Positions 4,848 through 52,355 of a stretch of DNA of 64,000 nucleotides are shown one piece after another. The notes below the pieces were generated by a model. It made no database searches. It was not told the origin of the DNA and saw nothing but the letters and a program-made list of their open reading frames with translations. The first letter of the stretch is position 1. Each line of letters starts with the position of its first letter. Position numbers and translations under genes: made by a program. Source of the stretch: Acidobacteriota bacterium (GTDB lineage Bacteria > Acidobacteriota > Thermoanaerobaculia > Multivoradales > JAHEKO01); the NCBI GenBank assembly GCA_029862975.1, contig JAOTWP010000002.1, positions 26,287 to 90,286 of the forward strand, in the 5' to 3' direction.

Positions 4848-7529
<2,682 letters not shown>

Positions 7530-7683
7530 GGATCAACTCCCAGAGACGCGCGGATCCGAGGCCCCGGGCCCGCTCGCCAGGCCGTGAACCGCGCATTCTA
7601 CGCTCTCGACGAGACCGTGGGTGCGCAGACCCCCTCGGTCGGGTCGCGTACCCCGGCCCGACCGCTCCCTGCCGCGCGTGGTT

Positions 7684-10438: not shown

Positions 10439-10478
10439 GGAGGCCGAGAGGAGGAGGTAGACTCGGGGGATCTCCACG

Positions 10479-20857: not shown

Positions 20858-20874
20858 TGACCTGAACCTCTGAC

Positions 20875-23553: not shown

Positions 23554-23589
23554 GGCTCGGCGCCCGGGCCGGACGGCCCGCTGACCCGC

Positions 23590-34169: not shown

Positions 34170-34853
34170 CTATCCGGGCGCGCCCGCGGAAGATCCTGGC
34201 TCGAGGGAGGAGGGCAGCAAGATGCCGCCCGAGATGACCATTCGCACTCCCTCTTCGATCGACATCGGCAGGTCGATGGTCTGATCGCGCGGCACGAGCA
34301 GCAGGTAGCCGCTCGTCGGGTTGGGGGTCGTGGGCAGGAAGACCATGACGAAATCGCTGGTGCGCTCGTGGATCTGAGGCCACCGGCTGCTGCCGGTGAC
34401 GAAAGCCAGCGCGAACATGTCCTTGCGCGGATACTCGATCAGCACAACCCGCTTGAAGGCGTCGCTCTTGTCCCGCGCCAGCGCCTCCATGACGCCCTTG
34501 GTCGCCAGATAGACCGCCCCGCCGACCGGAATGCGGGCGATCAGGCGCTCGACTCCGGCCACGATCCGGCGCCCCACGTAGTTGCTCGACAGCCAACCGA
34601 GGAGAAGGACCACCGCCAGCGTCAGGATCAAGCCGAGCCCGGGAATGTAAAAGCCCGGGATGTAGGGGTCGATCCAGGCCTGGATTCGGGGCGCGAAGAT
34701 GCCGTCCATCCAGCGGAAGAGCTGGAGCAGCACGTAGGCCGAGAGAGCTACGGGAACGAGGATCACGATCCCGGTCAGGAACATGCGCCGGAGTCGCGTG
34801 CGCAGCGGCATGTGGATCACCGCGGGGACCGCCTCGTGGTCGAGCGCCTTCAT
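34170..34853 (-). CDS. DUF502-family membrane protein.
   Basis: MKALDHEAVPAV... then a TM helix (FLTGIVILVPVALSAYVLL), and the conserved SGYLLLVPRDQTIDLPMSIEEG near the C-terminus. ATGA overlap with the NUDIX stop. Confidence 0.65.
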   Translation of the reverse strand: MKALDHEAVPAVIHMPLRTRLRRMFLTGIVILVPVALSAYVLLQLFRWMDGIFAPRIQAWIDPYIPGFYIPGLGLILTLAVVLLLGWLSSNYVGRRIVAGVERLIARIPVGGAVYLATKGVMEALARDKSDAFKRVVLIEYPRKDMFALAFVTGSSRWPQIHERTSDFVMVFLPTTPNPTSGYLLLVPRDQTIDLPMSIEEGVRMVISGGILLPSSLEPGSSAGAPG

Positions 34854-35425
34854 CGCGGCTCCGTGTGCGGCCCGCGGGAAGGGCCGTCCGCCGCCCCCAG
34901 GCCCAGCAGATAGAACGCCGCGACGACCAGCGAGTGGGTGATCTCGCCGCTGGCGATCAGGCCCGGGATCGCCGTCAGCGCAACGGTCTCCACCCGGATT
35001 TCCTCTCCCTCGACGCCGTAGACCTCGCGGCCGGCCGGCGGCGCTTCGAGGTCGCTGGCGAGCCAGGTCGAGAGCTCGTTGGACAGGAAGGCCGGGTTGG
35101 GGTGGGTGACGCCGAGCCGGCGGATCTTCCGGGCGCGGTAGCCGGTCTCCTCTTCGAGCTCCCGCCGCGCCGCCCGCTCGGGGTCCTCGCCCGGATCGAC
35201 CATGCCGCCGGGAATCTCGAGGGTCGGCGCCTGGATGCCGAAGCGCCACTGGCGGATCAGCAGGACGCGGCCGTCGGCGAGGAGCGGGACGACGTTGATC
35301 CAGTGCGGCGCCGTGAGGACCAGGGCTTCGCGGCGCTCCTCTCCCGCCGCCAGCTGGTGCCGCTCGAGCTCGAAGATGGGGTGGCGAAACAGGCTTTGGA
35401 CGTCGGTGGGCCGCCAGGAGCGCAT
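34850..35425 (-). CDS. NUDIX hydrolase (ADP-ribose pyrophosphatase-like).
   Basis: Nudix box GGMVDPGEDPERAARRELEEETG. Confidence 0.8.
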   Translation of the reverse strand: MRSWRPTDVQSLFRHPIFELERHQLAAGEERREALVLTAPHWINVVPLLADGRVLLIRQWRFGIQAPTLEIPGGMVDPGEDPERAARRELEEETGYRARKIRRLGVTHPNPAFLSNELSTWLASDLEAPPAGREVYGVEGEEIRVETVALTAIPGLIASGEITHSLVVAAFYLLGLGAADGPSRGPHTEPR

Positions 35426-35570
35426 CGCGAGACATTACCGCAAGAGCAACCGCGCAGCGCACTCCTCGCGAGGCGACCGGAAGGTTCTCGCCGCTCGGCC
35501 ATCCAACGGACGGCGCAAGCAGCCCGGGCCAGGCGCGGACACCCGCCTGCTCGTGCCGCCGCAGCCGGCC

Positions 35571-36500: not shown

Positions 36501-39500
36501 CTACCCTCGGGCCCGTCGCCGCGAGATCACCTCGATGAAGCCGGGGAGAATCTCCAGATGATCGCCGAGCATATCGTGAATCGCGCCACGGCTCAGCTCG
36601 AGAAGCCTCGTCGGCGCAACGGCGGTGGCGTCGGCCGTTCGCGCCCCGGTCTGCACCGCGGCGATCTCACCGAGGGTGCCCAGCTCTCCGACCTCGGTCA
36701 GCAATCTGCCGTCCTTCTCGACCCGAACCCGGCCCTCGACGACCAGAACCAGCGTCTGCCCGGGCTCCCCTTCCCGAAACAGCGGCATGCCCTCGCGGAG
36801 ACTCATCTCCCTGGTGCCCGCGCAGTACGTCGCCAGCAGGCGCGAAGGCAGCCTGGCGAAGAGATCCGAGCTCTTGAAGACGAGCACCTTCTCGAACGCC
36901 AGCAGATTCCGGCGGCCGCTCCCGTCACCCTCCGACCCGGGCTCGAGAAGCACAAGAAGGGGCTGCCGCGCGCTCGCCGGCAGCCGCTTCACATGGTGCT
37001 CGAACGCCGCACGATCGATCTCCGCGAGCGCCCAGGCGGCGAGCTCGCGCACCATCGCGTCCGAGCTGTGGAGATTGGCGAGCAGCGGTTCGGGGACGCT
37101 CTTCTCGCCGAGCTCCACCCACGACTGGATGGCGGTGGCGCGGAGCCAGCCATCGGCCGTACGGCGACCCCGGCTCATGATGTCGAGGAGGCGGGCGGAG
37201 CGGCCAAGGAGGCGCTGCGGCGAGTGCGCGGCGAGGCGATGGAGCAACTGGGCGCGCGGCAGGCTCTCGAAGAGGGGTAGCAACAGGTCCCGCTGGCCGG
37301 GGGGTAGGATCTGGTCGGCGATCTCGACGGCGTAGGCTCGATCTTCAGTGTTCTCGGACGCGATCTGTTGGCGCAAGAGCTCGACCGTCTTGCCGTCGGC
37401 GATCAACGCCAAAAGGTGGAAGATGGTCTCGATCTCGCTCTCGATCTCCAGATCGAGAGCGCCGGCGAGAAGCTCGGTCTCGCGACCATCACCGAGATCG
37501 AGGCGCGAGGCGAGATACCAGGCGAGGGTATCGACGACCTTCTCGATTTGATTCTGGACGATCGATTCCTGCTCGCCCCGGGCGCGGAAACCGAGCATGC
37601 CGAGGGAGCGGATCGCCTGCCGCTCGACGCCGCGGTCGGGGAAGACGAGTCTGTCGAAAAGGAGACTTTCCGCCTTGACGCCGCCGATCCGCTCGTAGAT
37701 GCGGAGAATCCGCAACCTCGCCTCCGGAGAATCGTCGAAGCGCCCGAAAGCCGCTTCCAGGGAGTCGAGTACACCCTCTCCGGCGGTGATCAGGCTCGAG
37801 GCTGCCGCCTTGCAGAAGAGCCCGGACGGCAACTGTTCGATCAGGACGGGCCAGAACTCGGCCCGCCGAGTCTGGCCGGCGGCGATCAAGGCGCGGCGGC
37901 GCACGGCGATGTCGCTGTCCCGCATCAGCCCGAAGAGCGAGCGCGCGGCCACGAGATCGGTTCGCCGGCCGATCATGACGGCTGCCGACTCGCGCTGCGC
38001 GGGATCGCGGGATTGAGCCAGCGCCGCCAGCTGGGCGGGCGTCGCGTCGTCCTGCGCCGCCGCCAGGAGAGAGCGGGCCGCGGCGCGGGCGGCGGCCGTC
38101 ATCTGCGGCTCCGACTCGCGAGCAGCCGCTGCCGAGAGCGCCGGCACCGGGTCGAAGATCTGCTGTACCTCGATCGTCTCGTAGGCCATGCGGCGCAGCT
38201 CCGCACGGTCCGACGCCAGCAGCTCGACCAGCAGTAGCTCGAGGACGTTCGGATCGACCACCTTGAGCGCGTCCAACGAGTGCCTGCACTCGAGCGGTGG
38301 CGCGGCCTGCAGCCGCCGGAGGATGAGGTCGAGCGGCGAGGCGATGGAGGCTCCTCCCGGCTGCCTGGCCAAGGCCGAGAGCAGCTTCTGCTGGAAGCCC
38401 GCGTAGGTCGGACGAATCAGCGTGAGCCAGATGGCAAGAACCAGCGCCAGCGCTACGATGACCGGTAGCGAGGTCTCCGAGACACGGCCCAGGCCGAGCA
38501 GGATCGAGCCGGCCAGCAACAGGCCGACCGGTTTCGCCACGCCCTCCAACCGCGCCTGAACGGACAGCCGGACGTCCTCGGAGAGCGGCTGGAAGAGAAC
38601 CCTCTGCGACGGCTCGAAGATCGAGCGGCGCAGCACGAACTCCGCCATCTTCGCCACCAGCACGAGGATGAAGTAGAGCTCGCCGAGCGCGCCGATCACG
38701 CCGCTCAAGAGCGACAGCGCGACGAGGACGGCGAGCGCCACGGGAAGGGCCGAGAGTCCGACCACGACGCCGAATCGAGTGACGAGCCTGCCCGCCAGGA
38801 ACGTCTTCGTCAGAAGCTCGAACAGCTTGATGACGCCGAAGAAAAAGCCGAGGATCCCGGCCAGGGCCTCTGCGCCCTGGAACCGGGCGCGGGTCTCCAC
38901 GAGGAAGCTGAAGTCGACGAAGAAGAGCGTGAAGACCGACAGCGCCGTGGTCGCCGCCACGAGCACGAAATAGCGATCGGCGAAGACCGTCGACAGGGCC
39001 ATCCCGGGCTCGGTCGCCGCGGCGTCCCGGCGCGTCCTGCGGAGCTGGTCCGCGAAGCGGCGGAGGATCGCCTGCAGCACCAGCAAGGAGAGGATCAGCC
39101 CGCCGGCGGCCAGGGCGAGCAGGCCGGTCGAGCCGAGAGTGCCGACGAGAGCGGGGACGAGCAGGAAGCCGAGAATCTCCGAGACCACCTCGCCGGAGCC
39201 GAGGAGGCCGAACAGGCGCTTGCCCTGCTGCAGATCGAAGAGCCTCGCCGCCAACCCCCAGAAGCCGAGGTCGACGAGCGTCAGGACCGGCAGAATCATG
39301 GAGAACATGACGAACCGGATCCAACCGCCTCCGGGCAGATTCAGCCCGACCGCAAAGAGCGCGGAGAGCACGACGAGGAACGCCAGGTTGATCATCAGCA
39401 GTCGCTCGATCGACACGCGACGCTCGAGGCGCGAGAAGAGCGCGAGGATCAGATAGGCCAGGCCGCCGGAGAGGATGTAGGCCCAGGGCAGAACGCGGTA

Positions 39501-39677
39501 GTCGAACCGATCGAGAAACTGGGCGCTGGCGACGGAGAAGAAGAAGGCGATGAAGACGCCGATCCAGAACGAGTGCGCCCACAACAGGACGATGCGGGAC
39601 CCTTCGCCGGGTCGAATGTGCAGCCAGCGCTCGATCCGCCGCCCGCCACCGGCATCTTCGGCGGCGTCGAGGGGCAT
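36501..39677 (-). CDS. Multidomain membrane protein: an N-terminal 12-TM MFS/TLC (ATP:ADP antiporter-like) transporter domain, HEAT/PBS-lyase-like repeats, and a C-terminal cyclic-nucleotide-binding domain.
   Basis: Start is ATG 39677 (MPLDAAED...) with GGAGGAG 5 nt upstream. About 12 hydrophobic helices lie in the first ~450 aa. Repeated ...A..AL..L.D..V... HEAT-like units follow. The C-terminal cNMP-binding signature is GEPGQTLVLVVEGRVRV...LGTLGEIA. Confidence 0.65.
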   Translation of the reverse strand: MPLDAAEDAGGGRRIERWLHIRPGEGSRIVLLWAHSFWIGVFIAFFFSVASAQFLDRFDYRVLPWAYILSGGLAYLILALFSRLERRVSIERLLMINLAFLVVLSALFAVGLNLPGGGWIRFVMFSMILPVLTLVDLGFWGLAARLFDLQQGKRLFGLLGSGEVVSEILGFLLVPALVGTLGSTGLLALAAGGLILSLLVLQAILRRFADQLRRTRRDAAATEPGMALSTVFADRYFVLVAATTALSVFTLFFVDFSFLVETRARFQGAEALAGILGFFFGVIKLFELLTKTFLAGRLVTRFGVVVGLSALPVALAVLVALSLLSGVIGALGELYFILVLVAKMAEFVLRRSIFEPSQRVLFQPLSEDVRLSVQARLEGVAKPVGLLLAGSILLGLGRVSETSLPVIVALALVLAIWLTLIRPTYAGFQQKLLSALARQPGGASIASPLDLILRRLQAAPPLECRHSLDALKVVDPNVLELLLVELLASDRAELRRMAYETIEVQQIFDPVPALSAAAARESEPQMTAAARAAARSLLAAAQDDATPAQLAALAQSRDPAQRESAAVMIGRRTDLVAARSLFGLMRDSDIAVRRRALIAAGQTRRAEFWPVLIEQLPSGLFCKAAASSLITAGEGVLDSLEAAFGRFDDSPEARLRILRIYERIGGVKAESLLFDRLVFPDRGVERQAIRSLGMLGFRARGEQESIVQNQIEKVVDTLAWYLASRLDLGDGRETELLAGALDLEIESEIETIFHLLALIADGKTVELLRQQIASENTEDRAYAVEIADQILPPGQRDLLLPLFESLPRAQLLHRLAAHSPQRLLGRSARLLDIMSRGRRTADGWLRATAIQSWVELGEKSVPEPLLANLHSSDAMVRELAAWALAEIDRAAFEHHVKRLPASARQPLLVLLEPGSEGDGSGRRNLLAFEKVLVFKSSDLFARLPSRLLATYCAGTREMSLREGMPLFREGEPGQTLVLVVEGRVRVEKDGRLLTEVGELGTLGEIAAVQTGARTADATAVAPTRLLELSRGAIHDMLGDHLEILPGFIEVISRRRARG

Positions 39678-40396
39678 CAAGACTCCTCCGGTGGCGGCGG
39701 CACGGCGACGAACCAGGCATCCTCGGCATGCCGCTCCGGGGCAAGGAAGGCGACGACCTGGAACGGCGTGCTCTCGTAGAGCTGGCACAGCCGCTGCGGC
39801 TCATGGGCGGGAATCAGCGCGTAGTCGACGCCGGCCTCTCCGCCTTCGACGAAGCCACGGAGCCGCTCGCGATCGATCCGCTCGTCGACGAGGGGATCCC
39901 CGTCGAGCGGACGGGCGATCGCCAGCCGCGCGGCGCCGAACCCCGCGAGACGGGGGTACACCGCTTCGACGCTGTGCCCGCAGAGATTGATGAACGTGAC
40001 GAGCGAAGCATGATTGTGGGGCGCCAGGACGGCGCGCTGGGCGCCACAGCCGCGCAGCGACGCCGCAAGCGCCGAGTGGGTGACGAGATCGGCGCCGAGA
40101 CGCCGCCCCGCGAGCTCCTCCGCCACGGCCAGGCTGACGCAGTAGGAGGTGCTCTCTGCGTCGCCGTAGGTGCACTCGAGCAGCGAAGCGACGATCCGTC
40201 CGGCCCCGTCCTCGAGCAGAAGCGGATGGCCGAACCGCACGAACCGATAGAGATCGTAGGCGGTCACCATCTCCAGGGCGGGGGACGAGAAGCGAGTGGC
40301 CAGGAAGGCCTCGATCGCCGGGACGTCGTCGATCCCCGGCGCGCGCAGCCGCAGCCCGAGCCGCGCGAAACGCCGCTCGAGCTGCTCGATGCGCAC
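39677..40396 (-). CDS. GNAT-like acetyltransferase-fold protein (start uncertain).
   Basis: C-terminal ~200 aa show a GNAT-like pattern (GRRLGADLVTHSALAASLRGCGAQRAVL). The proposed GTG start at 40396 (VRIEQLERRF) is weak. The stop overlaps the downstream ATG by 1 nt (TGATG). Confidence 0.35.
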   Translation of the reverse strand: MRIEQLERRFARLGLRLRAPGIDDVPAIEAFLATRFSSPALEMVTAYDLYRFVRFGHPLLLEDGAGRIVASLLECTYGDAESTSYCVSLAVAEELAGRRLGADLVTHSALAASLRGCGAQRAVLAPHNHASLVTFINLCGHSVEAVYPRLAGFGAARLAIARPLDGDPLVDERIDRERLRGFVEGGEAGVDYALIPAHEPQRLCQLYESTPFQVVAFLAPERHAEDAWFVAVPPPPEES

Positions 40397-40488: not shown

Positions 40489-43191
40489 TCACCGATCGCC
40501 GCCGCTTCCGGTGGGAGAGGAGATCCCGACGCGAAGCGACAGGACTCTTCCGGGCTGCGGCAGGATCGACGCGAAGAACGTTCCGTCCGCCAGCCTCACG
40601 CCGGGGTCCGAGTAGGTCTCGGCCAGCAGATTCGTGGCCGACAGCCGAAGCGACCACCGAGACGCGGGTCGACGGTAAGCGAGCGCCCCGTCGAGGACGA
40701 AGTGGGAGTCGATGCGGGCGAGCGGATTGAGCGGGACCGTCGTCAGGCGTCCGGTGGGGCGCTCGCCGACGAAGTTGGCCCGCAGGTTGAAGTTCCAACC
40801 ATCGTCGCGGTGGTAGTTCGCCCCGGCGTTCGCGCGGTGACTGGCGATGTCGCCGATCCTTCGTTCCTCGAGGGTCTGCGTCGTCGCGCTCAAGACCTCG
40901 CCCTTGGGGTCGGTAAAGGTGTAGTTGGCGTAGAGGTCCCAAGCGCCGCGCTGCCAGGAGGCGGTCGCCTGGAGACCGCTGATCTCGCGGCCGCCGCGAT
41001 TGACGTTGCGCCCGGTTCCCGAATCGCCGAACGGCTCGATGGCAACGGCGGCGCTGTAGTCGGCGCGATAGTAGGCGAGGTCGAGGTCGAGGTCCTCCCG
41101 CGGCTGCCAGCCGACGCTGAGCTCGAGGTTCTTCACCTTTTCGGGCGCCAGGTCAGGGGCCTGAAGCTCGCGGGTGCTCGGCGCCGTGGCGTAGCGATTG
41201 AAGTTCGACGCGTCCTTGAAGGCCTCGCTGTAGATCGCCTTGACGACATAGCGGTCTCGCAGGTGAATGAGACCGAGCCGCGGGTTGAGGACGGTGCCGT
41301 AGCCCGAGACCGTGACCGGCTCGCCATCGGCGCCAAGGACGTCGCGGCCGGCCTGAGAGACGTGATTGTCGTCCAACCTGCCACCAGCGACGAGCTTCCA
41401 GCGATCGGACAGCCGGTAGCTGGCCTGGGCGAACACGCCGATATCGGTCTGGTCGAACGACTGGCCGCTGGAGCAGTTCTCGGCTCCCCCGCTCGTGACG
41501 CAAAAGAAGGGCTGCTCGCGGGCGTTGGCAAAGCCAACGCCTGCGGGACGCTCGAACCTCAGGTTGTAGTCGCCTTGAATCTGGCTCGTCCGCACCTCGA
41601 GACCGCCGACCAGGCTGAGCCTGCTCGACGGTCGCCAGTTCAGGGTGATCTCGTTCCTGAACTGCTGGGAAGACTGGCTGTACTCGGTCGTCTGGAAGTA
41701 CGCGGGTATCCCGTTGGCGAGATCCTCGGCGTCGAGGCTGCCCTTGCTGTAGTTGCGCAGCTGCAGCTCGCCCGTGCCGTCGGCCAGCTTGTGCCGCTTG
41801 AAGCGGCTGAACACCGTGAGACCGAGCCGCCCCGGAATCAGGTCGTCCGCGTACTTGGCGTAGAAGAAGAGCTGGCTGGGGATCCACAGGGTGCCGCTGT
41901 CGGCGCCGGTGAACAGCTGGTCGGTAAACCAGCTCGTAAAGCCCTCCTCGCGCCGCCACGTCTGGAAGCCGGCCGTGAACTTGCGGGAGACGGAGATCCG
42001 GCCGTGGATCAGCCAGTCATCGGTGCGATCCGAGAACCGCAGGGGAGCGCCGAGGCTCGACAGCGCAGCCTTGTCGAGGTCGCGGGCGAGCGCGGCACCC
42101 TCACCCAGATGATCGTAGCCGCCGCGATCGAAGTAGAGGTCGTAGAAGCCGGGATCGTAGTCCCAGTAGCGAACGGACGACGGCGTCGCCGGGTCTCCGG
42201 GCAGAAAGCGCGGCCCCGAGAAGCCGGAGAGGTCGAGCTCGTCCGAGGTGTAGGTACGCGCGGCGAGAGAGAACGCGACCTTGCCCAGCACGCGACCGGC
42301 GACGAGAGCGTCGACGAAGCTCGTGCCCAGCTCGGCACCGCCGACCTCGACGTCGTAGAAGAACGATTCGCCCTCCGGCGTCAGATTCTCGGGGTCCTTG
42401 GTGATCACGTTGATGACGCCGACGAAGGCGTTGGGACCGTACATCGTCGTGGCGGGCCCGTAGATCACCTCCACGCGCTCGATGTTGCGCAACGGATACT
42501 GGCGAGAGACGTAGGCGATGTTCGACCACAGATCGTTCTCCTCGACGCCGTCGACGAGAAACAGGGTCCGGTCGGTGCTGTCGGAGCGATAGCCGCGAGG
42601 ATAGACGTTGGAGTAGAGAATTCCGTTGCCGCGCGAGATGTCGAACCCGGGCAGGTCATGAAGCACCGCTGCGAGATCGAGATACCCGCGGCGGGCGATC
42701 TGCTCGCCGGTGATCACCTCGACGGTGGCCGGCGCTTCGCGGAGACTCTCACTGGTCTTGGAGACTGAGCTCACGACCACCGTCGCGCCGCTCGACTTGA
42801 GCTGGGCCACGAGGCGCTTGAGGCGTGGGGGGTCGGCGCGGGCGGGCTCGTAGGCCGGGAGCTCATCGAGCACACGCGCGATCCAGGTCTCCGCCATCTC
42901 GAACTCGTCGCGTCCGAGATGGGCCTTGGCGAGCAGGATCTCGGCTTCGGTTCGATCCCGCCCACGCAAGCGCTCGTAGCATTCGCCAACGGTCTCCAGA
43001 ACGAGGTCGAACCGGCCGAGTCGGTAGGAATCCTCGGCGCCGTCGAGGTCGCAAGCGACGCCCTCGCCGGAGGCCTGGGCTCGCAGCCCGCCCGCACCCA
43101 GGAGGAAGGCGACCACCGCGATCGGCAGCAGGCCTCGCCGGCGCCGCGCCAGGCCTTTCGTGGCTCGACTCCTAAGGACAGGTTGCCTCAT
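40489..43191 (-). CDS. TonB-dependent outer-membrane receptor.
   Basis: Signal peptide. N-terminal extension and plug domain (TVVVSSVSKTSESLREAPATVEVITGEQI, TonB-box-like), IYGPATTMYGPNAFVGVINVITK, and a 22-strand barrel-length C-terminus. Confidence 0.8.
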   Translation of the reverse strand: MRQPVLRSRATKGLARRRRGLLPIAVVAFLLGAGGLRAQASGEGVACDLDGAEDSYRLGRFDLVLETVGECYERLRGRDRTEAEILLAKAHLGRDEFEMAETWIARVLDELPAYEPARADPPRLKRLVAQLKSSGATVVVSSVSKTSESLREAPATVEVITGEQIARRGYLDLAAVLHDLPGFDISRGNGILYSNVYPRGYRSDSTDRTLFLVDGVEENDLWSNIAYVSRQYPLRNIERVEVIYGPATTMYGPNAFVGVINVITKDPENLTPEGESFFYDVEVGGAELGTSFVDALVAGRVLGKVAFSLAARTYTSDELDLSGFSGPRFLPGDPATPSSVRYWDYDPGFYDLYFDRGGYDHLGEGAALARDLDKAALSSLGAPLRFSDRTDDWLIHGRISVSRKFTAGFQTWRREEGFTSWFTDQLFTGADSGTLWIPSQLFFYAKYADDLIPGRLGLTVFSRFKRHKLADGTGELQLRNYSKGSLDAEDLANGIPAYFQTTEYSQSSQQFRNEITLNWRPSSRLSLVGGLEVRTSQIQGDYNLRFERPAGVGFANAREQPFFCVTSGGAENCSSGQSFDQTDIGVFAQASYRLSDRWKLVAGGRLDDNHVSQAGRDVLGADGEPVTVSGYGTVLNPRLGLIHLRDRYVVKAIYSEAFKDASNFNRYATAPSTRELQAPDLAPEKVKNLELSVGWQPREDLDLDLAYYRADYSAAVAIEPFGDSGTGRNVNRGGREISGLQATASWQRGAWDLYANYTFTDPKGEVLSATTQTLEERRIGDIASHRANAGANYHRDDGWNFNLRANFVGERPTGRLTTVPLNPLARIDSHFVLDGALAYRRPASRWSLRLSATNLLAETYSDPGVRLADGTFFASILPQPGRVLSLRVGISSPTGSGGDR

Positions 43192-46100
43192 AGGGGAGAT
43201 CCTCGGGGAAGAAGCGCGCCCATTGCGCGCTGGTTAGACTTCGCGACAGGCGCGAGCAGATCGCGGCGACGAGCTCCTCGCTGCCGGTGGCCCAGCTGCG
43301 GACCGCGCCGTCGGCGCCGCCGGAGAAGAGCCGCCGGACGTCCGGGTGGAAGGCGACCGCCCAGACCCAGGAGTCGTGGCCGGAAAGAACGAGCGGATCG
43401 CTCTCGTAGAGGGGACCCGACCAGATCCTCACGGTACCGTCGGAGCCCGCCGAAGCGAGGAGCTCGCCATCTCTGGCGAAGCGCAACGAGTTGACGCTCG
43501 AGCGGTGGCCGACGAGGCGGCGCGGCGCGGCGTTCGAGCCGAGCTGCCAGAGGAAGACGTCGCCGCGCAAGTTGCCGACGGCGACGACGTCTCCGGCGGG
43601 GTGAAAGGCGAGCGACCGGACGTCGGTCAGACCCGGGTCGCCGCCGCCGCGCCCGCCGACGACCGTGGCGAGCGAGAGCTCGTAGCGGCGGCGAAACGCC
43701 CCGTCTGCGGCTTGCCACACGCGGACGAGGCCCTCTCCTCCGGCGGCCGCCAGCAGGCTCGCGTCGGGAGCGAAGTCGACCGCCGTGACCCTTCCCGAGA
43801 TCTCGAGATCGCTGCCCGACGCGGGATCGGCCGCTTCGCTCCACACCCGTACCCGGCCGCTGGAAAGTCCTGCGGCAAGCGTGCCGGAAGACGAGAAGGC
43901 GAGCGCGGAGACGATCGCTCCCGGTTCGAAGAAGACTTCCGTCTCCGCGGGAGAGGCGCCGAGCGCGAGGATCCGGACACGCCCCTCGACGTCGCCCACT
44001 GCGAGGCGCCCACCCTCGGCATCGAGGGCGAGGGAGCGCACGCCGGCGCCCGGCGCCAGGGAGAGCGGCTTCATGGCGGGAGCACTCGGGTCGAGAACGT
44101 GGATCTGCCCGCTGTCGTCTCCCGAGACGAGGATCGAGCCATCGGCAGCCACCGCCAACGCCCGGACCTGATCGTCATGCCCGGGGAGCCGCCCGCGGGT
44201 CGGATCGAGCTTCGACACAGCGCCCAGGAGGGCATCGTAGATCTCCGCGTTGCGGGGCTCTCCCTCGCTCGACCGATTGAGGCGGTAGGCCTCGACCGCG
44301 ATCAGCGCGGCGAGCTCTGGACCCTCCTCGGCTGCGAGACGGGGCACGCTCACCGCCAGGCGGCGGGCGAGCTCGAGCCGCCGGAGTCGCTGGGTCTTGG
44401 CCTCGGCAGCGCGCGCCTGTCGGGCCGCCTGCTCCGCTTCACCCTGGCTCTTGAGGGCGAGCTGCTCGTTGCGAGCCGCTTCCCGCCTGGCCCTCGCTTC
44501 CAGCGCCTGCGCCTCGAGCGCTCGCGCCCTCTCCTCCTCGGCCCGGCTCTGGGCACGCAGCGCCGTCTGCTCGCTGGCGACGGCCTTCTCCCGCGCAAGC
44601 CTCTCGGCCGCCTGGGCCGAGAGTGCCCGTGCCCTGTCCTCTTCGGCCCGCCGCTTGCTGCGCAAGGCCTCCTCCTCGCTCGCGAGCGCTTCCTCCTTGG
44701 CCCTGGCCTCGCGCGCTACCGCCACTTCGGCACGACCGAGCGCTTCGTCGGCCTGGCCCTTGGCGACCAGCGCCCAGCCGAAGAGAACAAGGATGACGCC
44801 GACCGCCAACGCCGAACCCAGCGCGACCATCCGCAACCCTCGCAGCTTGCGCCTGCGGCGCTGATCCTCGCGGGCCATTTCGCGCTCGCGCTCCGCGCGG
44901 CTGAGCTCGAGGAACGTCGCGGCGCGCTCGTACGAGGGGTCGTAGCGCTGCGCCCAGGCCTCGGTGGGCTGGGCCGACTCGCGCCAGCTGAGCGCCAGCT
45001 GCAGCTCGGGATCGCGCAGCAGCCCGCCCTGGCCATCCTGGTAGCGCGCCGCCGCCGCCGCCAGACGCAGGTAGACCTGGGCGCCCTGGGCCTCCTGATC
45101 CACGAGCCTGCGCAGCCGGGTCCAGACTCGCATCAGGCTCTCGTGCGAGATGTCGACGACGGAATCCGACCGCAGCTCCTTGCCGACCGGAGGGATGAGG
45201 AACGAGCGCCCCGGGCTGCGAAAGACCTCGACCACCCTGCGCACCTCCGATTCCGACAGGCCGGTCACGGCGCAGATCTCCGCCACGCTCGACGGACGGC
45301 GGATCCCGCGGCCGTCGATACCCTTCTCGGTGATGCACTTGAAGAGCTTCTCGGCGCCGTCGATCGCCCCCTCGGTGCCGAGCTCCACGAGTGCTTCTTC
45401 GGCGTGCAGGGACAGCGCTTCGCGGGTCGTACCGATGGCCTCGTAGTGACGCAGATCGAGGGGCTCGTCATCGATGTGGTTGCGCTCCCAATAGTCCCAG
45501 GTCCGCATCAGGGAGTGCTGGAGGATCGGCAGCTCATCGGGGTCGTCGCCGCCGTCGTTGAGCAGCCGGAGAACCAGCCGCTCGGCGATCTCGGCGCCAC
45601 CCACCGCCACCGGGCCGGTGATCGCCGAGCGCCGCTCTTCGCGCGTCATCCGCGGGATCAAGTAGAGGCCGCGGTTGATCGCGCCTGGCAGATCCTGGAA
45701 CTCCGTGCAGTTGCCCAGGAAGTCGGAGCGCATCGTGAGCACCACGAAGATCGGACGTTGCTGCTGCCTCGAAGCCTCGAGAAGCAGGGTCATGAAGGCG
45801 GTCGATTCGTCTGTGGAGGCGAGCCGCGCGGCGCTGCGCTTGAAGCGGAAGATCTCCTCGAACTGATCGACGAGGATCAACAGGTTCTCGTCCTCGGGGA
45901 GCCCGGATTGCCGGACGGCCTCCGTCAGACCCTGGCCGCCACGGCGCAGCGTCGCCTCGATGATGGCGCTGCGCGTGGCGTGGGGCGTGCCGTCGGCTGG
46001 CAGCACTTCCGGATCGCCGAGGCTGGCGGCGAGGTTGCCGAGCGGATCGTCGCCCGGACGCAGGATCGCGATCCGCCAGGAGGATCCGGCCGCGGCGAGG

Positions 46101-46318
46101 TAGCCGCTGTAGAGATAGGGGATCAGACCGGAGCGCACGAGAGACGACTTGCCGCTGCCGGACGCTCCGACGACGGTGAGGAATCGAGACCTGTCGAGAC
46201 GTGCCAGCAGCTCGTCCACCTCCGACTCGCGGCCGAAGAAGAGGTGGTCCTCCCCCGGCTCGAACGGTCTCAGGCCTGGAAACGGATTGAACGTCGTCGT
46301 GGCGTTCGAAACTGCCAT
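43172..46318 (-). CDS. STAND-class P-loop NTPase with a single TM helix, a long coiled-coil and a C-terminal WD40 beta-propeller.
   Basis: N-terminus FFGRESEVDELLARLDRSRFLTVVGASGSGKSSLVRSGLIPYL (Walker A). Walker B LLILVDQFEE. TM helix LRMVALGSALAVGVILVLFGWALVA. ~200 aa of Ala/Glu/Arg-rich heptad-like sequence follow. Then come at least six WD-like repeats (GHDDQVRALAV..., GHRSSVNSLRF..., SGHDSWVWAVAF...). Confidence 0.75.
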   Translation of the reverse strand: MAVSNATTTFNPFPGLRPFEPGEDHLFFGRESEVDELLARLDRSRFLTVVGASGSGKSSLVRSGLIPYLYSGYLAAAGSSWRIAILRPGDDPLGNLAASLGDPEVLPADGTPHATRSAIIEATLRRGGQGLTEAVRQSGLPEDENLLILVDQFEEIFRFKRSAARLASTDESTAFMTLLLEASRQQQRPIFVVLTMRSDFLGNCTEFQDLPGAINRGLYLIPRMTREERRSAITGPVAVGGAEIAERLVLRLLNDGGDDPDELPILQHSLMRTWDYWERNHIDDEPLDLRHYEAIGTTREALSLHAEEALVELGTEGAIDGAEKLFKCITEKGIDGRGIRRPSSVAEICAVTGLSESEVRRVVEVFRSPGRSFLIPPVGKELRSDSVVDISHESLMRVWTRLRRLVDQEAQGAQVYLRLAAAAARYQDGQGGLLRDPELQLALSWRESAQPTEAWAQRYDPSYERAATFLELSRAEREREMAREDQRRRRKLRGLRMVALGSALAVGVILVLFGWALVAKGQADEALGRAEVAVAREARAKEEALASEEEALRSKRRAEEDRARALSAQAAERLAREKAVASEQTALRAQSRAEEERARALEAQALEARARREAARNEQLALKSQGEAEQAARQARAAEAKTQRLRRLELARRLAVSVPRLAAEEGPELAALIAVEAYRLNRSSEGEPRNAEIYDALLGAVSKLDPTRGRLPGHDDQVRALAVAADGSILVSGDDSGQIHVLDPSAPAMKPLSLAPGAGVRSLALDAEGGRLAVGDVEGRVRILALGASPAETEVFFEPGAIVSALAFSSSGTLAAGLSSGRVRVWSEAADPASGSDLEISGRVTAVDFAPDASLLAAAGGEGLVRVWQAADGAFRRRYELSLATVVGGRGGGDPGLTDVRSLAFHPAGDVVAVGNLRGDVFLWQLGSNAAPRRLVGHRSSVNSLRFARDGELLASAGSDGTVRIWSGPLYESDPLVLSGHDSWVWAVAFHPDVRRLFSGGADGAVRSWATGSEELVAAICSRLSRSLTSAQWARFFPEDLPYEATCP

Positions 46319-46327
46319 GATCGTCTC

Positions 46328-47821
46328 CTATGCCTCCACCGCCGCCAGGAAAGGCTCGAGCGACTCGACCGAGAGGCTGTCCGGACACTTGATGACGACC
46401 GCTTCGTGGGTCCGGAACTGCTCCTTCTCCGGCGATGCCGGCTGGGCCACCAGGATCGCCTTCGCGCGCATCGGCTCGGTGCGGCCATAGCCGGCGATCT
46501 TCTTGAGCTCGCGGAGCTTGGAGCGCAGCCAGAGCGACTTCGCATGGCCGTAGTAGATGAGGACTGCGTCGCAGATCTTGAGATTCTCCTCGTGGTCCGT
46601 CCGGACCTCGGAGGCCTCCCCCTCGAAGATCGGCAGCGCGACCTCGAGGCCGCGGTCGTAGAGTAGATCCCCCACCGTTCGCACCTCGTCGATGTCCTTG
46701 CGGTCGCAGATCAGGTAGACCAGGCTCGGGCCGTCCCCGCCGGCCGCGGCGGCCCTCGACCCGCCGTTGGCGGTCACCTTCGGCGCCAGCTTGCCGAGGA
46801 TGGCCGCCTTGAGCTCCTCGAGCGAGGTCTCGAAGAGATCCGCGCCGCCGAGAGTGGCCGGGTCGGTGCGCAGGGCTTGAAGCAGGCTGCGCTGTCGCTC
46901 GTCCTCCGCCTCGACGCCAGGCTGGATCCAGACGACGCGATCGAAGCCGGCGCCGGCGGCCCGCTCGATGGAGAGCCGGTTCTGAAGGTCGGCGAGCGAG
47001 TGGTTGGCGCCTTCGGGAACCACGCCGTAGCTCTTCCCCATGAGGTGAACCGACAGCTGGCACCGGGCGAGGATCTCGGGCACCCGGCGGGCGATCTCCG
47101 AAGCCACGGGTGGCAGGGCCTCCTGCGGCTCGACCGTGTAGCCGCGTTGGACGAGGTCGCGCTTGACGGCGTCTCGCGCTTCCCTGAGCCCGAAGGTCGC
47201 CTCCGCGAGGAAGACCCGTTTGCCGGAACCCTCGGCCGGGGACTTCATGGCCGGAGCCGGAGCACCCTCCGCGGCGGCGGCCTCCGATTCCAGGAGCCGA
47301 GCGATGTCCGAGGCCAGATCGTCGAGGGCCGACCAGTACTTGCGCTCTCGCTCCGGTCCCGAGAAGAGGTTGTACTCACGGACCCGCTCGGTCTCGGGAT
47401 CGAGGGAGAAGAAGTCGTAGCCCAACAGGCCGCGGATCTCCTCCGGCTGGCTCTCGAGAGGAATCGGGGTCTTCGTCACCTTGAAGAGACGGCTCTTGTT
47501 CGCGATCGTCAGATCGCCCCCTCGCCGCTTCGCGTCGAGGAAGCCGGTGAGCTCTCGCAGACACCACTCCGACCGCACGTAACGCGGCGACAGCACGGAG
47601 ACCATCGTCGAGACGCTCGCGAAGCGGTCGGCGATCTCGCCTGCGAAATCGTCGTTGCCCTGCAGCTTGGGATCGCGCCACACTCGCGGCTCGCGGCCCA
47701 GCAACTGCCCGAGGCGGACCTTCAGCGAGTGGTGGAAGCTCGAGACCCACCCCTCCTGGTCGGGAACCAGCGGTTGATTGTCGATGTGCGCGTAGCTGAC
47801 GAAGACGTCGTTCTCTGCCAT
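46328..47821 (-). CDS. TIR-domain protein with two further TIR-like/flavodoxin-fold (DUF4062-like) domains.
   Basis: N-terminus MAENDVFVSYAHIDNQ...WVSSFHHSLKVRL...VLSPRYVRSEWCLREL is a canonical bacterial TIR. Two further Rossmann-like modules follow (KRVFLAEATFG...CQLSVHLMG; SLVYLICDRKD...CDAVLIYYG). The stop lies 9 nt upstream of the NTPase ATG, with AGGAG overlapping the stop. Confidence 0.75.
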   Translation of the reverse strand: MAENDVFVSYAHIDNQPLVPDQEGWVSSFHHSLKVRLGQLLGREPRVWRDPKLQGNDDFAGEIADRFASVSTMVSVLSPRYVRSEWCLRELTGFLDAKRRGGDLTIANKSRLFKVTKTPIPLESQPEEIRGLLGYDFFSLDPETERVREYNLFSGPERERKYWSALDDLASDIARLLESEAAAAEGAPAPAMKSPAEGSGKRVFLAEATFGLREARDAVKRDLVQRGYTVEPQEALPPVASEIARRVPEILARCQLSVHLMGKSYGVVPEGANHSLADLQNRLSIERAAGAGFDRVVWIQPGVEAEDERQRSLLQALRTDPATLGGADLFETSLEELKAAILGKLAPKVTANGGSRAAAAGGDGPSLVYLICDRKDIDEVRTVGDLLYDRGLEVALPIFEGEASEVRTDHEENLKICDAVLIYYGHAKSLWLRSKLRELKKIAGYGRTEPMRAKAILVAQPASPEKEQFRTHEAVVIKCPDSLSVESLEPFLAAVEA

Positions 47822-48025
47822 TCTCAGCTCATCGCCCGCCCGCGCGGTCCACCGCCGCGCCGCTCCCGACGACGCCCTCGAGGGGTTGACTCGAATGGGG
47901 ATGGCACCCTCGATCCCATGCGAGTTGAAAACAAGGTACTACAGATCTTCCCACATCGGCGCGCCGCATCGCACCGGGTGCTCGGTCGTCCGCCGGCTCC
48001 CGGAGGTGCTCGAGAGGGTCCGGCG

Positions 48026-52246: not shown

Positions 52247-52355
52247 CAGGAGCTCTCCACGGGCTGCTGGCTGCTGCCCCATGATCGGGCACCGCTCGCC
52301 GCCGCGCACCACCCCCCGGGGCGGCCGACCCGCCACCCCGGCGATCGCGGCGGGT

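What the first reader, a model, noticed from the sequence alone, without database searches (positions are those of the whole stretch)
43172..48025. Two-gene TIR + membrane-anchored STAND NTPase/WD40 operon: candidate NLR-like defence or death-signalling module.
A 497-aa protein with a canonical TIR domain (DVFVSYAHID...SEWCLREL) plus two extra TIR-like/DUF4062-like modules ends 9 nt before a 1048-aa protein. The SD sequence overlaps its stop. The second protein combines a STAND-type P-loop NTPase (FFGRESEVDELL...VVGASGSGKSS), one TM helix, a ~200-residue coiled-coil and a WD40 propeller. TIR-containing STAND NTPases are the core of Avs- and Thoeris-like antiphage immunity and of apoptosis-like systems proposed for multicellular bacteria. 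Here the TIR effector is a separate gene and the sensor is membrane-tethered. I do not recognise this split as a named system. A 200-nt lower-GC intergenic region (47822-48025) with a TTGACT box and a short palindrome precedes the pair. The TonB receptor gene overlaps the 3' end by 20 nt.
Basis: partly seen in the sequence, partly recalled or inferred. Interest (0 to 1): 0.8.

Follow-up and report, generated by a model that had tools for sequence, protein, structure and literature searches.

The report
Envelope-spanning TIR–STAND–TonB receptor module
The flagged TIR and STAND-ATPase gene pair is real, but it is the inner half of a conserved three- to four-gene module that appears to link an outer-membrane TonB-dependent receptor, through a periplasmic WD40 sensor on a membrane-anchored NLR-like ATPase, to a cytoplasmic TIR enzyme.

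Summary
Window 46328-47821 (-) encodes a 497-aa protein ("TIR3") with a TIR domain and two DUF4062-like domains. Window 43172-46318 (-) encodes an nSTAND1 ATPase, one TM helix, a heptad stalk and a 7-bladed WD40 propeller.

The two-gene, cytoplasmic-sensor reading is too narrow.
- In 77 of 80 related loci that carry an nSTAND1 gene, from several phyla, it directly follows the TIR3 gene.
- All 69 partners long enough to judge have one TM helix. K/R residues average 6.6 before it and 2.9 after it, so the repeats are predicted to be periplasmic.
- An outer-membrane protein gene comes next. WD40 forms have a TonB-dependent receptor, as here (40489-43191). TPR forms have a ~400-aa beta-barrel.
- A structure model docks the receptor's conserved N-terminal extension onto the propeller (ipSAE 0.79; best control 0.00).
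- A TLC-type transporter with HEAT and cNMP-binding domains (36501-39788) is a conserved fourth gene.

The TIR keeps its catalytic Glu (E90). Domain 2 carries Gln where DUF4062 NADases have their catalytic Glu.

The module was not found in 40 relatives and occurs in 4 of 300 other genomes sampled from the phylum.

Best reading: cell-surface signalling like FecA/FecR, but with an NLR-like switch and a TIR output. A defence role is plausible and unproven. I found no description of this arrangement.

The parts
46328..47821 (-). TIR3 gene (P0001, 497 aa): a cytoplasmic protein with three domains
   Evidence: ORF and translation. Full-length homologues at about 40-65% identity, more than 1100 in one library and 5448 cluster representatives in another. 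AF2 pLDDT 87.
47264..47821 (-). Domain 1 (residues 1-186): TIR domain with the catalytic Glu E90 (codon 47552-47554)
   Evidence: TIR_2 E 7.7e-11. Foldseek hits to RUN1, RPP1, SPARTA TIR-APAZ, SARM1 and AbTir. E90 is invariant in 32 of 32 sequences. It aligns with RUN1 E100, and the E100A mutant entry 7s2z shows Ala in that column.
46778..47230 (-). Domain 2 (residues 198-348): DUF4062/NIR-like domain with Gln (Q280, codon 46982-46984) in place of the catalytic Glu
   Evidence: Weak DUF4062 hit in P0001; precomputed PF13271 hits in many homologues. The best PDB profile hit is KpSwz DUF4062, E 3.5e-4. Aligned with canonical DUF4062 proteins, their S-I-T-E-L-E-Y motif lines up with S-x-V-x-L-Q-N here.
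46331..46735 (-). Domain 3 (residues 363-497): a third alpha/beta domain, distantly related to domain 2, with no invariant Glu
   Evidence: hhalign of domain 2 against domain 3 gives E 3.4e-4. Conserved columns. Confident in the AF2 model.
43172..46318 (-). nSTAND1-TM-stalk-WD40 gene (P0002, 1048 aa), coupled to the TIR3 gene by a 9-nt gap
45032..46285 (-). Cytoplasmic nSTAND1 NTPase module (residues 12-429), with the P-loop GASGSGKSS and an LLILVDQFEE Walker B-like stretch
   Evidence: PF20703 E 2.3e-90. 48-64% identical across the loci where the whole module aligns.
44774..44830 (-). Single transmembrane helix (residues 497-515), predicted N-in and C-out
   Evidence: A hydrophobic segment sits at this place in all 69 partners long enough to judge. 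K/R residues in the 15 flanking positions average 6.6 before it and 2.9 after it.
44324..44773 (-). Periplasmic heptad (Ala-zipper) helical stalk (residues 516-665)
   Evidence: Ala is invariant or nearly invariant at 11 of the 16 heptad positions between residues 523 and 628. The TM-to-propeller length is 170-191 aa, mostly 177, 184 or 191, which are steps of 7. The AF2 model has long helices at 471-557 and 571-665.
43175..44323 (-). Periplasmic helical bundle and 7-bladed WD40 propeller (residues 666-1048)
   Evidence: WD40 E 1e-40. AF2 pLDDT is above 90 over most of the propeller, residues 718-1010.
40489..43191 (-). TonB-dependent outer-membrane receptor (P0003, 900 aa), the conserved third gene; it overlaps the nSTAND1 gene by 20 nt
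   Evidence: Plug E 2.7e-20 and barrel E 2.8e-39. It directly follows the short WD40-type partner in 23-27 loci from Acidobacteriota, Bacteroidota and Fibrobacterota, at 30-41% identity over the full length. It was not found in 5 relatives. It falls below every curated TBDR subfamily cut-off.
42787..43062 (-). Receptor N-terminal extension (residues 44-135). It lies between the signal peptide and the SSVSK stretch at the TonB-box position, with two invariant Cys and GRF and DP motifs
   Evidence: Alignments. Predicted to dock on the top face of the propeller: ipSAE 0.79, best of 3 controls 0.00.
36501..39788 (-). 12-TM TLC/MFS-like transporter fused to HEAT repeats and a cNMP-binding domain (1095 aa); a conserved fourth gene of the WD40/TBDR subtype
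   Evidence: HEAT and cNMP_binding hits. About 12 hydrophobic segments. Homologous to the gene after the TBDR in Bacteroidota loci, E 7e-49. Present in 22 loci. Atlas clusters are named TLC ATP/ADP transporter/HEAT/cNMP.
47822..48025 (-). Upstream intergenic region and presumed promoter region; contains the palindrome CCCTCGAGGG
   Evidence: Sequence. No sigma-70-like site found. GC is not lower than the operon.

Best explanation
The two flagged genes belong to a conserved module that spans the cell envelope.

Anatomy, shown by sequence, comparison and models:
1. TIR3 is a cytoplasmic protein. Its N-terminal TIR domain keeps the catalytic Glu. Domains 2 and 3 are DUF4062-like and lack it, with Gln at that site in domain 2.
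2. The partner is a type-II inner-membrane protein. It has a cytoplasmic nSTAND1 ATPase, one TM helix, a heptad Ala-zipper stalk and a 7-bladed WD40 propeller predicted to lie in the periplasm.
3. [quoted passage not shown] Its family-specific N-terminal extension lies just before the TonB-box position and is predicted to bind the top face of the propeller.
4. In this subtype a fourth gene encodes an inner-membrane TLC-type transporter with HEAT repeats and a cNMP-binding domain.

Mechanism, inferred:
- The module works like cell-surface signalling of the FecA/FecR type.
- An event at the outer-membrane gate changes the contact between the extension and the propeller. The event could be ligand loading or hijacking by a phage or bacteriocin.
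- The stalk and TM helix pass this to the nSTAND1 ATPase, which switches or oligomerises.
- That brings TIR3 molecules together so that the TIR domain cleaves NAD+. The result is either NAD+ depletion with growth arrest or an NAD-derived signal.
- The Glu-to-Gln domain probably serves as a non-catalytic scaffold or ligand-binding unit.

Whether the biological role is antiviral defence or regulated uptake and signalling is open.
For: Gene linkage:
- The nSTAND1 gene directly follows the TIR3 gene in 77 of 80 loci that hold an nSTAND1 match. Implied gaps run from -32 to +26 nt.
- The loci come from Acidobacteriota, Bacteroidota, Cyanobacteria, Fibrobacterota and other phyla.
- The TIR3 tree clusters by partner type: 4 label changes against about 21 in shuffles.

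Topology:
- One TM helix in 69 of 69 partners, with K/R averaging 6.6 before it and 2.9 after it.

Outer-membrane partner in two independent subtypes:
- A TBDR follows the short WD40 forms.
- The ~400-aa protein after the TPR forms was read in two loci and has a signal peptide and a C-terminal ...YRYTF/...YRFSF beta-signal. Three were scanned, with weak Phenol_MetA_deg or OMP_b-brl hits.

Contact between receptor and propeller:
- The receptor extension is conserved across phyla and carries two invariant Cys.
- The complex model of propeller and extension scores ipSAE 0.79 (runs 0.84, 0.79, 0.79). The best of 3 controls scores 0.00.
- In the tool's calibration that mark was reached by 58 of 80 solved complexes and 2 of 110 mismatched pairs.
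- Partner pLDDT is at least 81 and the runs agree in at least 90% of contacts.
- The contacts include the extension's invariant GRF, D95 and DP motifs.

Stalk:
- It has heptad Ala and lengths that differ in steps of 7.

Catalytic residues:
- E90 is invariant and aligns with the catalytic E100 of RUN1.
- Q280 replaces the invariant Glu of the DUF4062 E-Y/F motif. The E-to-Q change abolishes activity in PsAvs2, Vulcan and VstA (bioRxiv 10.64898/2026.09.04.749371).

Fourth gene and distribution:
- The fourth gene is conserved.
- The module is accessory and patchy.
Against: - Everything is computational. Topology rests on the positive-inside rule and on context, not on a dedicated predictor or an experiment.
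- The complex score is the model's own confidence, and my own alignments were used, so the calibration holds only roughly.
- On the propeller side, some contact residues are the canonical WD-repeat H/S/D/W positions. Their conservation is no independent support.
- In a monomer, AF2 folds the stalk back as a hairpin with a low-confidence turn. Whether the propeller reaches the outer membrane is therefore unknown.
- 13 long WD40 forms (1109-1440 aa) have no adjacent outer-membrane gene.
- Two loci have the TIR3 gene with a TrkA_N gene and no STAND gene.
- No NADase activity, trigger or phenotype is known.
- Around the window there are only weak, generic PADLOC hits and no recognisable defence system.
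Confidence: 0.6

Rival explanations
1. The module regulates nutrient or nucleotide uptake and is not an immune system. The TBDR and the TLC-type transporter together import a substrate, perhaps a nucleotide or an NAD-related compound. The WD40-nSTAND1 protein reports receptor occupancy, as FecR does. TIR3 makes or destroys a nucleotide second messenger that tunes transport or metabolism, for example through the transporter's cNMP-binding domain.
For: - A TBDR followed by an inner-membrane transporter is a complete import route, and the two are conserved together in 22 loci.
- The fourth gene carries a cNMP-binding domain.
- TPR-type loci carry a RyR/TPR-S/nucleotide-cyclase protein. Bacteroidota loci carry a TrkA_N (NAD-binding fold)/RyR protein.
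- No classical defence genes recur around the loci.
Against: - TIR and DUF4062 domains with STAND NTPases have so far been tied to immunity or cell death (PMC8195603; bioRxiv 10.64898/2026.05.01.722283).
- There is no DNA-binding output.
- The module is rare and patchy (4 of 300), which is more typical of conflict systems, although accessory uptake systems can be patchy too.
- TPR-type and long-WD40 loci lack the transporter.
Confidence: 0.25
2. It is a conventional two-gene NLR-like antiphage system. The STAND protein is merely tethered to the membrane, its WD40 propeller senses a phage protein in the cytoplasm, and the TBDR and transporter are unrelated neighbours.
For: - TIR with STAND is a known defence logic, as in Avs, bNACHT and the nSTAND1 conflict systems (PMC8195603).
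- The long WD40 forms have no outer-membrane partner.
- Drawn as a hairpin, the stalk could be read as a cytoplasmic coiled coil.
Against: - The positive-inside bias in 69 of 69 partners puts the C-terminal part outside.
- Two unrelated outer-membrane protein families follow the two sensor types at offsets of a few nucleotides.
- The complex model gives a strong, control-separated score for the propeller with a periplasmic receptor domain.
- No PADLOC model matches.
Confidence: 0.08
3. It monitors the envelope or cell contact as part of programmed cell death or kin recognition in aggregating bacteria, rather than sensing phage or nutrients.
For: - nSTAND1 systems were described as enriched in bacteria with a multicellular habit (PMC8195603, PMC7159879).
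- Members occur in filamentous cyanobacteria (Scytonema, Tildeniella) and in soil Acidobacteriota and Bacteroidota.
- Some loci sit next to contractile-injection-system genes.
Against: There is no direct evidence. Most hosts here are uncultured MAGs of unknown habit. The contractile-injection-system linkage is seen only in five closely related loci.
Confidence: 0.07

Closest known systems
nSTAND1-centred conflict systems (Kaur, Burroughs, Iyer and Aravind 2021, PMC8195603) and other bacterial NLR-like defence proteins (Avs, bNACHT)
   Same: The same NTPase family (PF20703, E 2e-90). There is a TIR effector and C-terminal repeats (WD40 or TPR) that act as the presumed sensor.
   Different: The effector is a separate three-domain protein rather than an N-terminal fusion. 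A conserved TM helix puts the repeats outside the cytoplasm. A dedicated outer-membrane protein gene follows. No PADLOC model matches. The papers I searched do not mention an outer-membrane or TonB link.
TonB-dependent cell-surface signalling (FecA/FecR/FecI and PupB/PupR types; PMC11637429, PMC7186176)
   Same: A TBDR with an extra N-terminal domain ahead of the TonB box. A single-pass inner-membrane partner with a cytoplasmic N-terminus and a periplasmic C-terminal domain predicted to bind that extension.
   Different: The extension is a TPR-like helical domain with two Cys, with no Pfam STN hit. The inner-membrane partner is a STAND ATPase with a WD40 propeller, not an anti-sigma factor. 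The output is a TIR protein, not an ECF sigma factor.
PCTM systems: ParA with a C-terminal TM and periplasmic repeats, plus an upstream effector gene (bioRxiv 10.64898/2026.10.19.760177)
   Same: The same layout: an effector gene upstream and a cytoplasmic NTPase fused to a type-II TM anchor with periplasmic TPR or other repeats. The authors proposed that these sense periplasmic perturbation.
   Different: The NTPase is a ParA/SIMIBI GTPase-class protein, not a STAND. The effectors are SLATT, caspase or CPPC-4h, not TIR. No outer-membrane partner is described.
DUF4062/NIR NADase defence proteins (Swarozyc, Evangelion, Vulcan, Vesta, NIR-Avs; bioRxiv 10.64898/2026.05.01.722283, 10.64898/2026.09.04.749371 and 10.64898/2026.06.25.731849)
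   Same: Domain 2 is a DUF4062-like fold. Its best PDB profile hit is KpSwz. The family is associated with NLR-like NTPases.
   Different: Here the catalytic Glu of the E-Y/F motif is Gln, so domain 2 is probably not an NADase. The catalytic candidate is the classical TIR domain in the same protein.
FxsC TIR-like protein of FxSxx-COOH systems (NCBIfam NF040588)
   Same: It is the best NCBIfam hit for domain 1, covering residues 7-175 and almost the whole model. From memory, FxsC is also encoded separately from a STAND/TPR protein.
   Different: The score of 55.5 bits is far below the cut-off of 130. No radical-SAM/SPASM FxsB or FxSxx-COOH peptide gene lies in the operon.

Membership tests
TIR domain NADase | TIR-fold domain recognised by a profile and by structure | tested here: met
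   TIR_2 at 43 bits, above the cut-off of 28. Foldseek probability 1.00 to the RUN1, SPARTA, SARM1 and AbTir TIR domains.
TIR domain NADase | Catalytic Glu in the WCxxE position of helix alpha-C | tested here: met
   E90 is invariant in 32 of 32 sequences. It aligns with RUN1 E100, and the E100A entry 7s2z shows Ala in that column.
TIR domain NADase | NAD+ cleavage activity | not testable with these tools
   This needs an enzyme assay.
DUF4062 / NIR NADase (domain 2) | Sequence and fold likeness to DUF4062 | tested here: met
   Pfam E 0.0085 in P0001, below the cut-off, but PF13271 is recorded for many homologues. L034's homologue scores 30.2 bits, above the cut-off. PDB profile hit to KpSwz, E 3.5e-4.
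DUF4062 / NIR NADase (domain 2) | Conserved catalytic Glu of the E-Y/F motif | tested here: not met
   Gln (Q280) is nearly invariant at that column when aligned with 7 canonical DUF4062 proteins.
nSTAND1 NTPase | Match to PF20703 above the cut-off, with a P-loop | tested here: met
   304 bits against a cut-off of 27.1, covering residues 12-429. GASGSGKSS is present.
Avs (antiviral STAND) | Single polypeptide with an N-terminal effector, a STAND module and a cytoplasmic C-terminal sensor, recognised by defence-system HMMs | tested here: not met
   The effector is a separate gene. The NTPase starts at residue 12. There is no PADLOC hit. The sensor is predicted to be periplasmic.
Thoeris | ThsB TIR protein together with a ThsA (SIR2 or TM with SLOG or Macro) effector | tested here: not met
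   P0001 has no Thoeris model among its PADLOC hits. No ThsA-like gene was found among the neighbours scanned.
TonB-dependent transducer cell-surface signalling | TBDR with an N-terminal extension before the TonB box | tested here: met
   A conserved extension of about 95 residues lies between the signal peptide and the SSVSK/Plug region.
TonB-dependent transducer cell-surface signalling | The extension is an STN signalling domain, paired with a FecR-type anti-sigma factor and an ECF sigma factor | tested here: not met
   No STN hit in P0003. The genes of the operon are TIR3, nSTAND1 and a TLC transporter, with no sigma or anti-sigma gene.
TonB-dependent transducer cell-surface signalling | The periplasmic domain of a single-pass inner-membrane partner binds the extension | tested here: inconclusive
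   The model supports binding (ipSAE 0.79; best control 0.00), but this is a prediction, not a measurement.
FxsC (NF040588) | Score above the curated cut-off | tested here: not met
   55.5 bits against a cut-off of 130.
EACC1 two-gene membrane system (PMC7159879) | An EACC1 single-TM protein plus a caspase-fused partner | tested here: not met
   As the paper describes it, that architecture does not fit. There is no caspase, and the TM helix lies in the NTPase protein.

The most novel reading that the evidence does not exclude
This is an outside-in innate immune receptor complex of Gram-negative bacteria. It would use an extracytoplasmic propeller, a TM helix and a cytoplasmic TIR output, a layout loosely like that of Toll-like receptor signalling. 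A TonB-dependent gate, of the kind phages and bacteriocins exploit, is guarded from the periplasmic side by the WD40 propeller. Hijacking of the gate would be relayed across the inner membrane to an NLR-like ATPase and would fire a TIR NADase before, or as, foreign DNA enters. The TLC transporter could then move NAD-derived nucleotides. At the speculative end, that would let neighbouring cells take up an alarm signal through the same receptor.
Probability: 0.2. Interest if true: 0.92.

Novelty: new variant of a known kind. Interest (0 to 1): 0.78.

Why it matters
The characterised bacterial NLR-like and TIR systems I know of sense their triggers inside the cytoplasm. This module would move the sensor to the periplasm and wire it to a dedicated outer-membrane gate.

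That joins two fields that have been separate: TonB-dependent cell-surface signalling and NLR/TIR immunity.

It gives a testable case for how a STAND switch can be driven across a membrane. It also gives a natural example of a Glu-to-Gln pseudo-NADase domain next to an active-looking TIR.

The family is large. Any function found would therefore annotate many genes now called hypothetical.

If the role turns out to be uptake control rather than defence, it would be an unusual non-immune use of a TIR and STAND pair.

Tried and rejected
- PADLOC on both proteins and on the neighbours. There was no hit for the STAND protein, only weak TIR hits (SAVED_TIR E 6.6e-4; PDC-S66), and generic cNMP and NUDIX hits nearby. 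The module is not a named PADLOC 2.0.0 system, and the window is not an evident defence island.
- I considered EACC1 as the meaning of the "constant" C-terminal domains and rejected it after reading the description.
- hhalign of domain 1 against domains 2 and 3 found no detectable relation with this small alignment. Domain 3 has no meaningful PDB sequence hit.
- A sigma-70 promoter scan of the region found none.
- I searched 300 genomes of the phylum with a profile of the receptor's N-terminal extension. Other genomes gave only weak hits (E 1e-6 to 3e-10) in shorter open frames of 235-717 aa rather than in receptor-sized frames; I did not inspect them further. This gives no information on co-occurrence.
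- A RyR-domain partner, conserved in many related loci, was not found in this genome, which is 93% complete.
- Neighbour synteny in five close relatives showed only about 30% identical paralogue-level matches, so I could not define insertion boundaries.
- The conserved C-terminal Cys pair in some WD40 proteins occurs in only 8 of 25 type-A sequences, so I did not use it as evidence for a periplasmic location.
- Literature searches for TonB, TIR, WD40 and STAND together, or for STAND NTPase with periplasmic and TIR, found no description of this arrangement.
- The careful tree search did not finish in time. The quick tree was used instead.

Full report
**What is in the window**

All relevant genes are on the minus strand.
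- 46328-47821 encodes P0001, 497 aa.
- 43172-46318 encodes P0002, 1048 aa.
- 40489-43191 encodes P0003, 900 aa.
- 36501-39788 encodes a 1095-aa protein.

Pfam results:
- P0001: TIR_2, E 7.7e-11, residues 6-101, plus a weak DUF4062 hit at residues 202-275.
- P0002: nSTAND1, E 2.3e-90, residues 12-429, plus WD40, E 1e-40.
- P0003: TonB-dependent receptor (TBDR) Plug and barrel.

The gap reads TAG-GAGACGATC-ATG, 9 nt with GGAG over the stop. The receptor ATG overlaps the nSTAND1 gene's 3' end by 20 nt.

- Its GC is 0.691, against 0.696 for the two genes.
- TTGACT is on the + strand.
- No sigma-70-like site was found.

The genome is a 4.49-Mb MAG in 309 contigs. Its PDH E1 protein is closest to Acidobacteriota and Thermoanaerobaculia records.

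**The TIR protein ("TIR3")**

It belongs to a large, full-length-conserved family of about 500 aa. More than 1100 proteins matched in one library. In the exhaustive library 5448 cluster representatives matched, 1317 of them at E ≤ 1e-30.

An AF2 model (pLDDT 87) has three alpha/beta domains.

Domain 1 is a TIR.
- Foldseek matches RUN1, RPP1, SPARTA TIR-APAZ, SARM1 and AbTir.
- E90, in the SxWCxRE motif, is invariant in 32 of 32 members.
- E90 aligns with the catalytic E100 of RUN1. The E100A crystal entry shows Ala in that very column.

Domain 2 is DUF4062-like.
- Its best PDB profile hit is KpSwz DUF4062, E 3.5e-4.
- Three 2026 preprints show that DUF4062 (NIR) is a TIR-like NADase with a catalytic Glu. 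E-to-Q mutants are dead.
- I aligned domain 2 with seven canonical DUF4062 proteins fetched from relatives.
- The canonical S-I-T-E-L-E-[YF] motif lines up with S-x-V-x-L-Q-N. The invariant Glu is replaced by a nearly invariant Gln, Q280.

Domain 3 is distantly related to domain 2 (hhalign E 3.4e-4). It has no invariant Glu.

So one catalytic candidate is followed by two non-catalytic TIR-like domains.

**The pair is a conserved unit**

They lie in Acidobacteriota, Bacteroidota, Cyanobacteria, Fibrobacterota and other phyla.

I analysed 83 loci: the best 80 of that scan and three found by protein look-up.
- 80 have an nSTAND1 match.
- In 77 of these it directly follows the TIR3 gene, with implied gaps of -32 to +26 nt.
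- In three it lies about 6 kb upstream.
- Two loci have the TIR3 gene with a TrkA_N gene and no STAND gene.
- One locus ends at the contig edge.

The nSTAND1 module is 48-64% identical across the loci where it aligns in full.

The window's genome has one copy.
- No homologue was found in 40 relatives of the same genus, family and order.
- A homologue was found in only 4 of 300 other genomes sampled from the phylum.

It is therefore an accessory, patchily distributed module and not a housekeeping gene pair.

**The membrane anchor and the stalk**

Every partner long enough to judge (69 of 69) has a single hydrophobic helix about 60-90 residues after the NTPase module.
- K/R residues in the 15 flanking positions average 6.6 on the N-terminal side and 2.9 on the C-terminal side.
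- This predicts an N-in, C-out type-II topology.
- The stalk and the repeats should therefore be periplasmic.

In the WD40/TBDR subtype, Ala is invariant or nearly invariant at 11 of the 16 heptad positions between residues 523 and 628 of the stalk.

The distance from TM helix to propeller is 170-191 residues. Most values are 177, 184 or 191, which are heptad steps.

The AF2 model of residues 470-1048 has pLDDT 86.
- One helix runs through the membrane.
- Two long helices follow, drawn as a hairpin in the monomer with a low-confidence turn.
- A small helical bundle and a 7-bladed propeller complete the model.
- If extended, 150 helical residues would span about 22 nm.
- Whether the stalk is extended or folded back cannot be decided here.

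**An outer-membrane partner in two independent subtypes**

I clustered the downstream ORFs.
- Type A: WD40 forms of about 1010-1075 aa, and two longer-called ORFs, are followed at offsets of a few nucleotides by a TBDR in 23-27 loci, including the window and L001. The TBDR is 30-41% identical to P0003 over its whole length.
- Type B: TPR forms of about 900-990 aa are followed in 21 loci by a protein of about 400 aa.
- I translated that protein in two loci and scanned it in three. The two translations show a signal peptide and a C-terminal ...YRYTF or ...YRFSF beta-signal. The scans gave weak Phenol_MetA_deg or OMP_b-brl hits.
- 13 long WD40 forms (1109-1440 aa) have no adjacent outer-membrane gene.

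The TIR3 tree clusters by partner type, with 4 label changes against about 21 in shuffles. This fits inheritance of the module as a unit. Relatedness of the hosts contributes to that signal, and only a quick tree was obtained.

**The receptor's N-terminal extension and the propeller**

P0003 and its orthologues share a conserved extension of about 95 residues.
- It lies between the signal peptide and the invariant SSVSK stretch at the TonB-box position.
- It carries two invariant Cys, a GRF motif, an Asp and a DP motif.
- This placement is the same as that of the signalling domain of FecA-type transducers. It is not an STN domain by Pfam.

I modelled the propeller (P0002 680-1048, 22-row alignment) with the extension (P0003 44-152, 21-row alignment).
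- ipSAE was 0.84, 0.79 and 0.79 in three runs. The best of three controls was 0.00.
- In the tool's calibration that mark was reached by 58 of 80 solved complexes and 2 of 110 mismatched pairs.
- Partner pLDDT was at least 81, and the runs agreed in at least 90% of contacts.
- The model supports binding but does not show it. My own alignments were used, so the counts hold only roughly.
- The contacts run around the blades of the propeller: P0002 residues 715-717, 735-736, 761, 777, 802, 819, 895-896, 917, 939-941, 959-960, 983-984 and 1002.
- On the receptor they involve P0003 residues 57-60, 62, 95, 97 and 121-123, which include the GRF, D95 and DP motifs.
- Several propeller contact residues are canonical WD-repeat positions. 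Their conservation is not independent evidence.

**A fourth gene**

The 1095-aa protein at 36501-39788 has about 12 hydrophobic segments, HEAT repeats and a cNMP-binding domain.
- It is homologous (E 7e-49) to the gene that follows the TBDR in Bacteroidota loci.
- It is present in 22 loci.
- Atlas clusters with near-identical features are named TLC ATP/ADP transporter/HEAT/cNMP.

Other recurrent neighbours are lineage-specific.
- Bacteroidota loci have a TrkA_N/RyR membrane protein upstream.
- Type B loci have a RyR/TPR-S/MAP3K_TRAF_bd/nucleotide-cyclase protein.
- Neither is present in this genome.

**Interpretation**

Shown by sequence and comparison:
- the domain content and the catalytic-residue pattern
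- conservation of the gene order
- the TM helix with its charge bias
- the outer-membrane partner
- the patchy distribution

Supported by models:
- the folds
- the contact between propeller and extension

Inferred:
- Signal flow runs from the outer-membrane receptor through the propeller, stalk and TM helix to the nSTAND1 switch.
- The switch then assembles or activates TIR3 so that it cleaves NAD+.

The logic is that of FecA/FecR cell-surface signalling. An NLR-like ATPase stands in place of the anti-sigma factor, and a TIR enzyme stands in place of the sigma factor.

The closest published concept is the PCTM class: ParA, a TM helix and periplasmic repeats, with an upstream effector gene (bioRxiv 10.64898/2026.10.19.760177).

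nSTAND1 with TIR effectors is known (PMC8195603). I found no description of a TM-anchored nSTAND1 with an outer-membrane partner.

**Defence or uptake control?**

For defence:
- the precedent of the TIR, DUF4062 and STAND families
- the rarity and patchiness of the module
- the common use of TonB-dependent receptors as entry gates by phages and bacteriocins (general knowledge)

For uptake or signalling:
- a TBDR with an inner-membrane transporter is a complete import route
- the neighbours carry cNMP, cyclase, TPR-S and NAD-binding-fold domains
- no classical defence genes recur around the loci

I put the envelope-spanning architecture and signalling logic at about 0.6. Within it, I leave the biological role open.

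**Verdict**

It misses the main point: the unit has three to four genes and spans the envelope. This is a new variant of NLR-like TIR/STAND systems and is worth experimental follow-up.

Noticed in passing
window 48026-52336 (-): A 1436-aa protein lies directly upstream, with two BcrAD/BadFG acyl-CoA dehydratase-activase ATPase modules and DUF2229. It is not conserved next to the module in other loci.
   Followed up: partly
window 34850-35434 (-): A NUDIX hydrolase two genes downstream of the transporter gives a weak PADLOC PDC-S07 hit (E 4e-8). A possible link to ADP-ribose from a TIR NADase is speculative.
   Followed up: no
window 1685-7532 (-): A pyruvate dehydrogenase operon (E1, E2, E3). 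L001, which carries the closest type-A module, also has a PDH E1 gene about 7 kb upstream of its TIR3 gene. This is probably coincidence.
   Followed up: no
window 10461-14376 and 20866-25806 (+): Three sulfatase genes and a radical-SAM/SPASM gene that resembles an anaerobic sulfatase-maturating enzyme.
   Followed up: no
L110 (G000:C289:6220-6465) and L008 (G000:C149:7420-8196): The same genome holds a second, canonical DUF4062 protein that keeps the E-Y motif, in a 728-aa open frame. It also holds a second weak nSTAND1-like match in a 1438-aa open frame.
   Followed up: partly
L082:7028-10497 and L089:7016-10488: Two Chitinophagales loci have the TrkA_N gene and the TIR3 gene but no nSTAND1 gene. 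An unrelated CNNM/CBS/CorC transporter follows. This is either a reduced variant or a remnant.
   Followed up: partly
L038:1091-6936 (also L070, L079, L080, L081): Contractile-injection-system genes (a tape-measure protein and an AAA ATPase) lie just upstream of the TrkA_N/RyR and TIR3 operon in five related Bacteroidota loci.
   Followed up: no
L034, L036, L087: In three Thermoanaerobaculia loci the gene order is inverted. The nSTAND1-WD40 gene (1258-1389 aa) lies about 6 kb upstream of the TIR3 gene, with conserved ORFs between them.
   Followed up: no
proteins P0059, P0118, P0126, P0127 and others: Some family members carry an N-terminal extension of about 300 aa ahead of the three TIR-like domains. 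It is annotated as a protein kinase in P0059 and P0118. Members of about 660 aa match in two stretches.
   Followed up: no
window 43175-43270 (P0002 C-terminus): A C-terminal tail with two conserved Cys (C...R.L....W......CP) is shared by 8 of 25 type-A proteins and is absent from the Bacteroidota forms.
   Followed up: partly
L004:15158-17475: A DruA-family gene and an IS66 transposase lie about 2 kb downstream of a long-WD40 member. This is the only classical defence or mobile-element neighbour I noticed.
   Followed up: no
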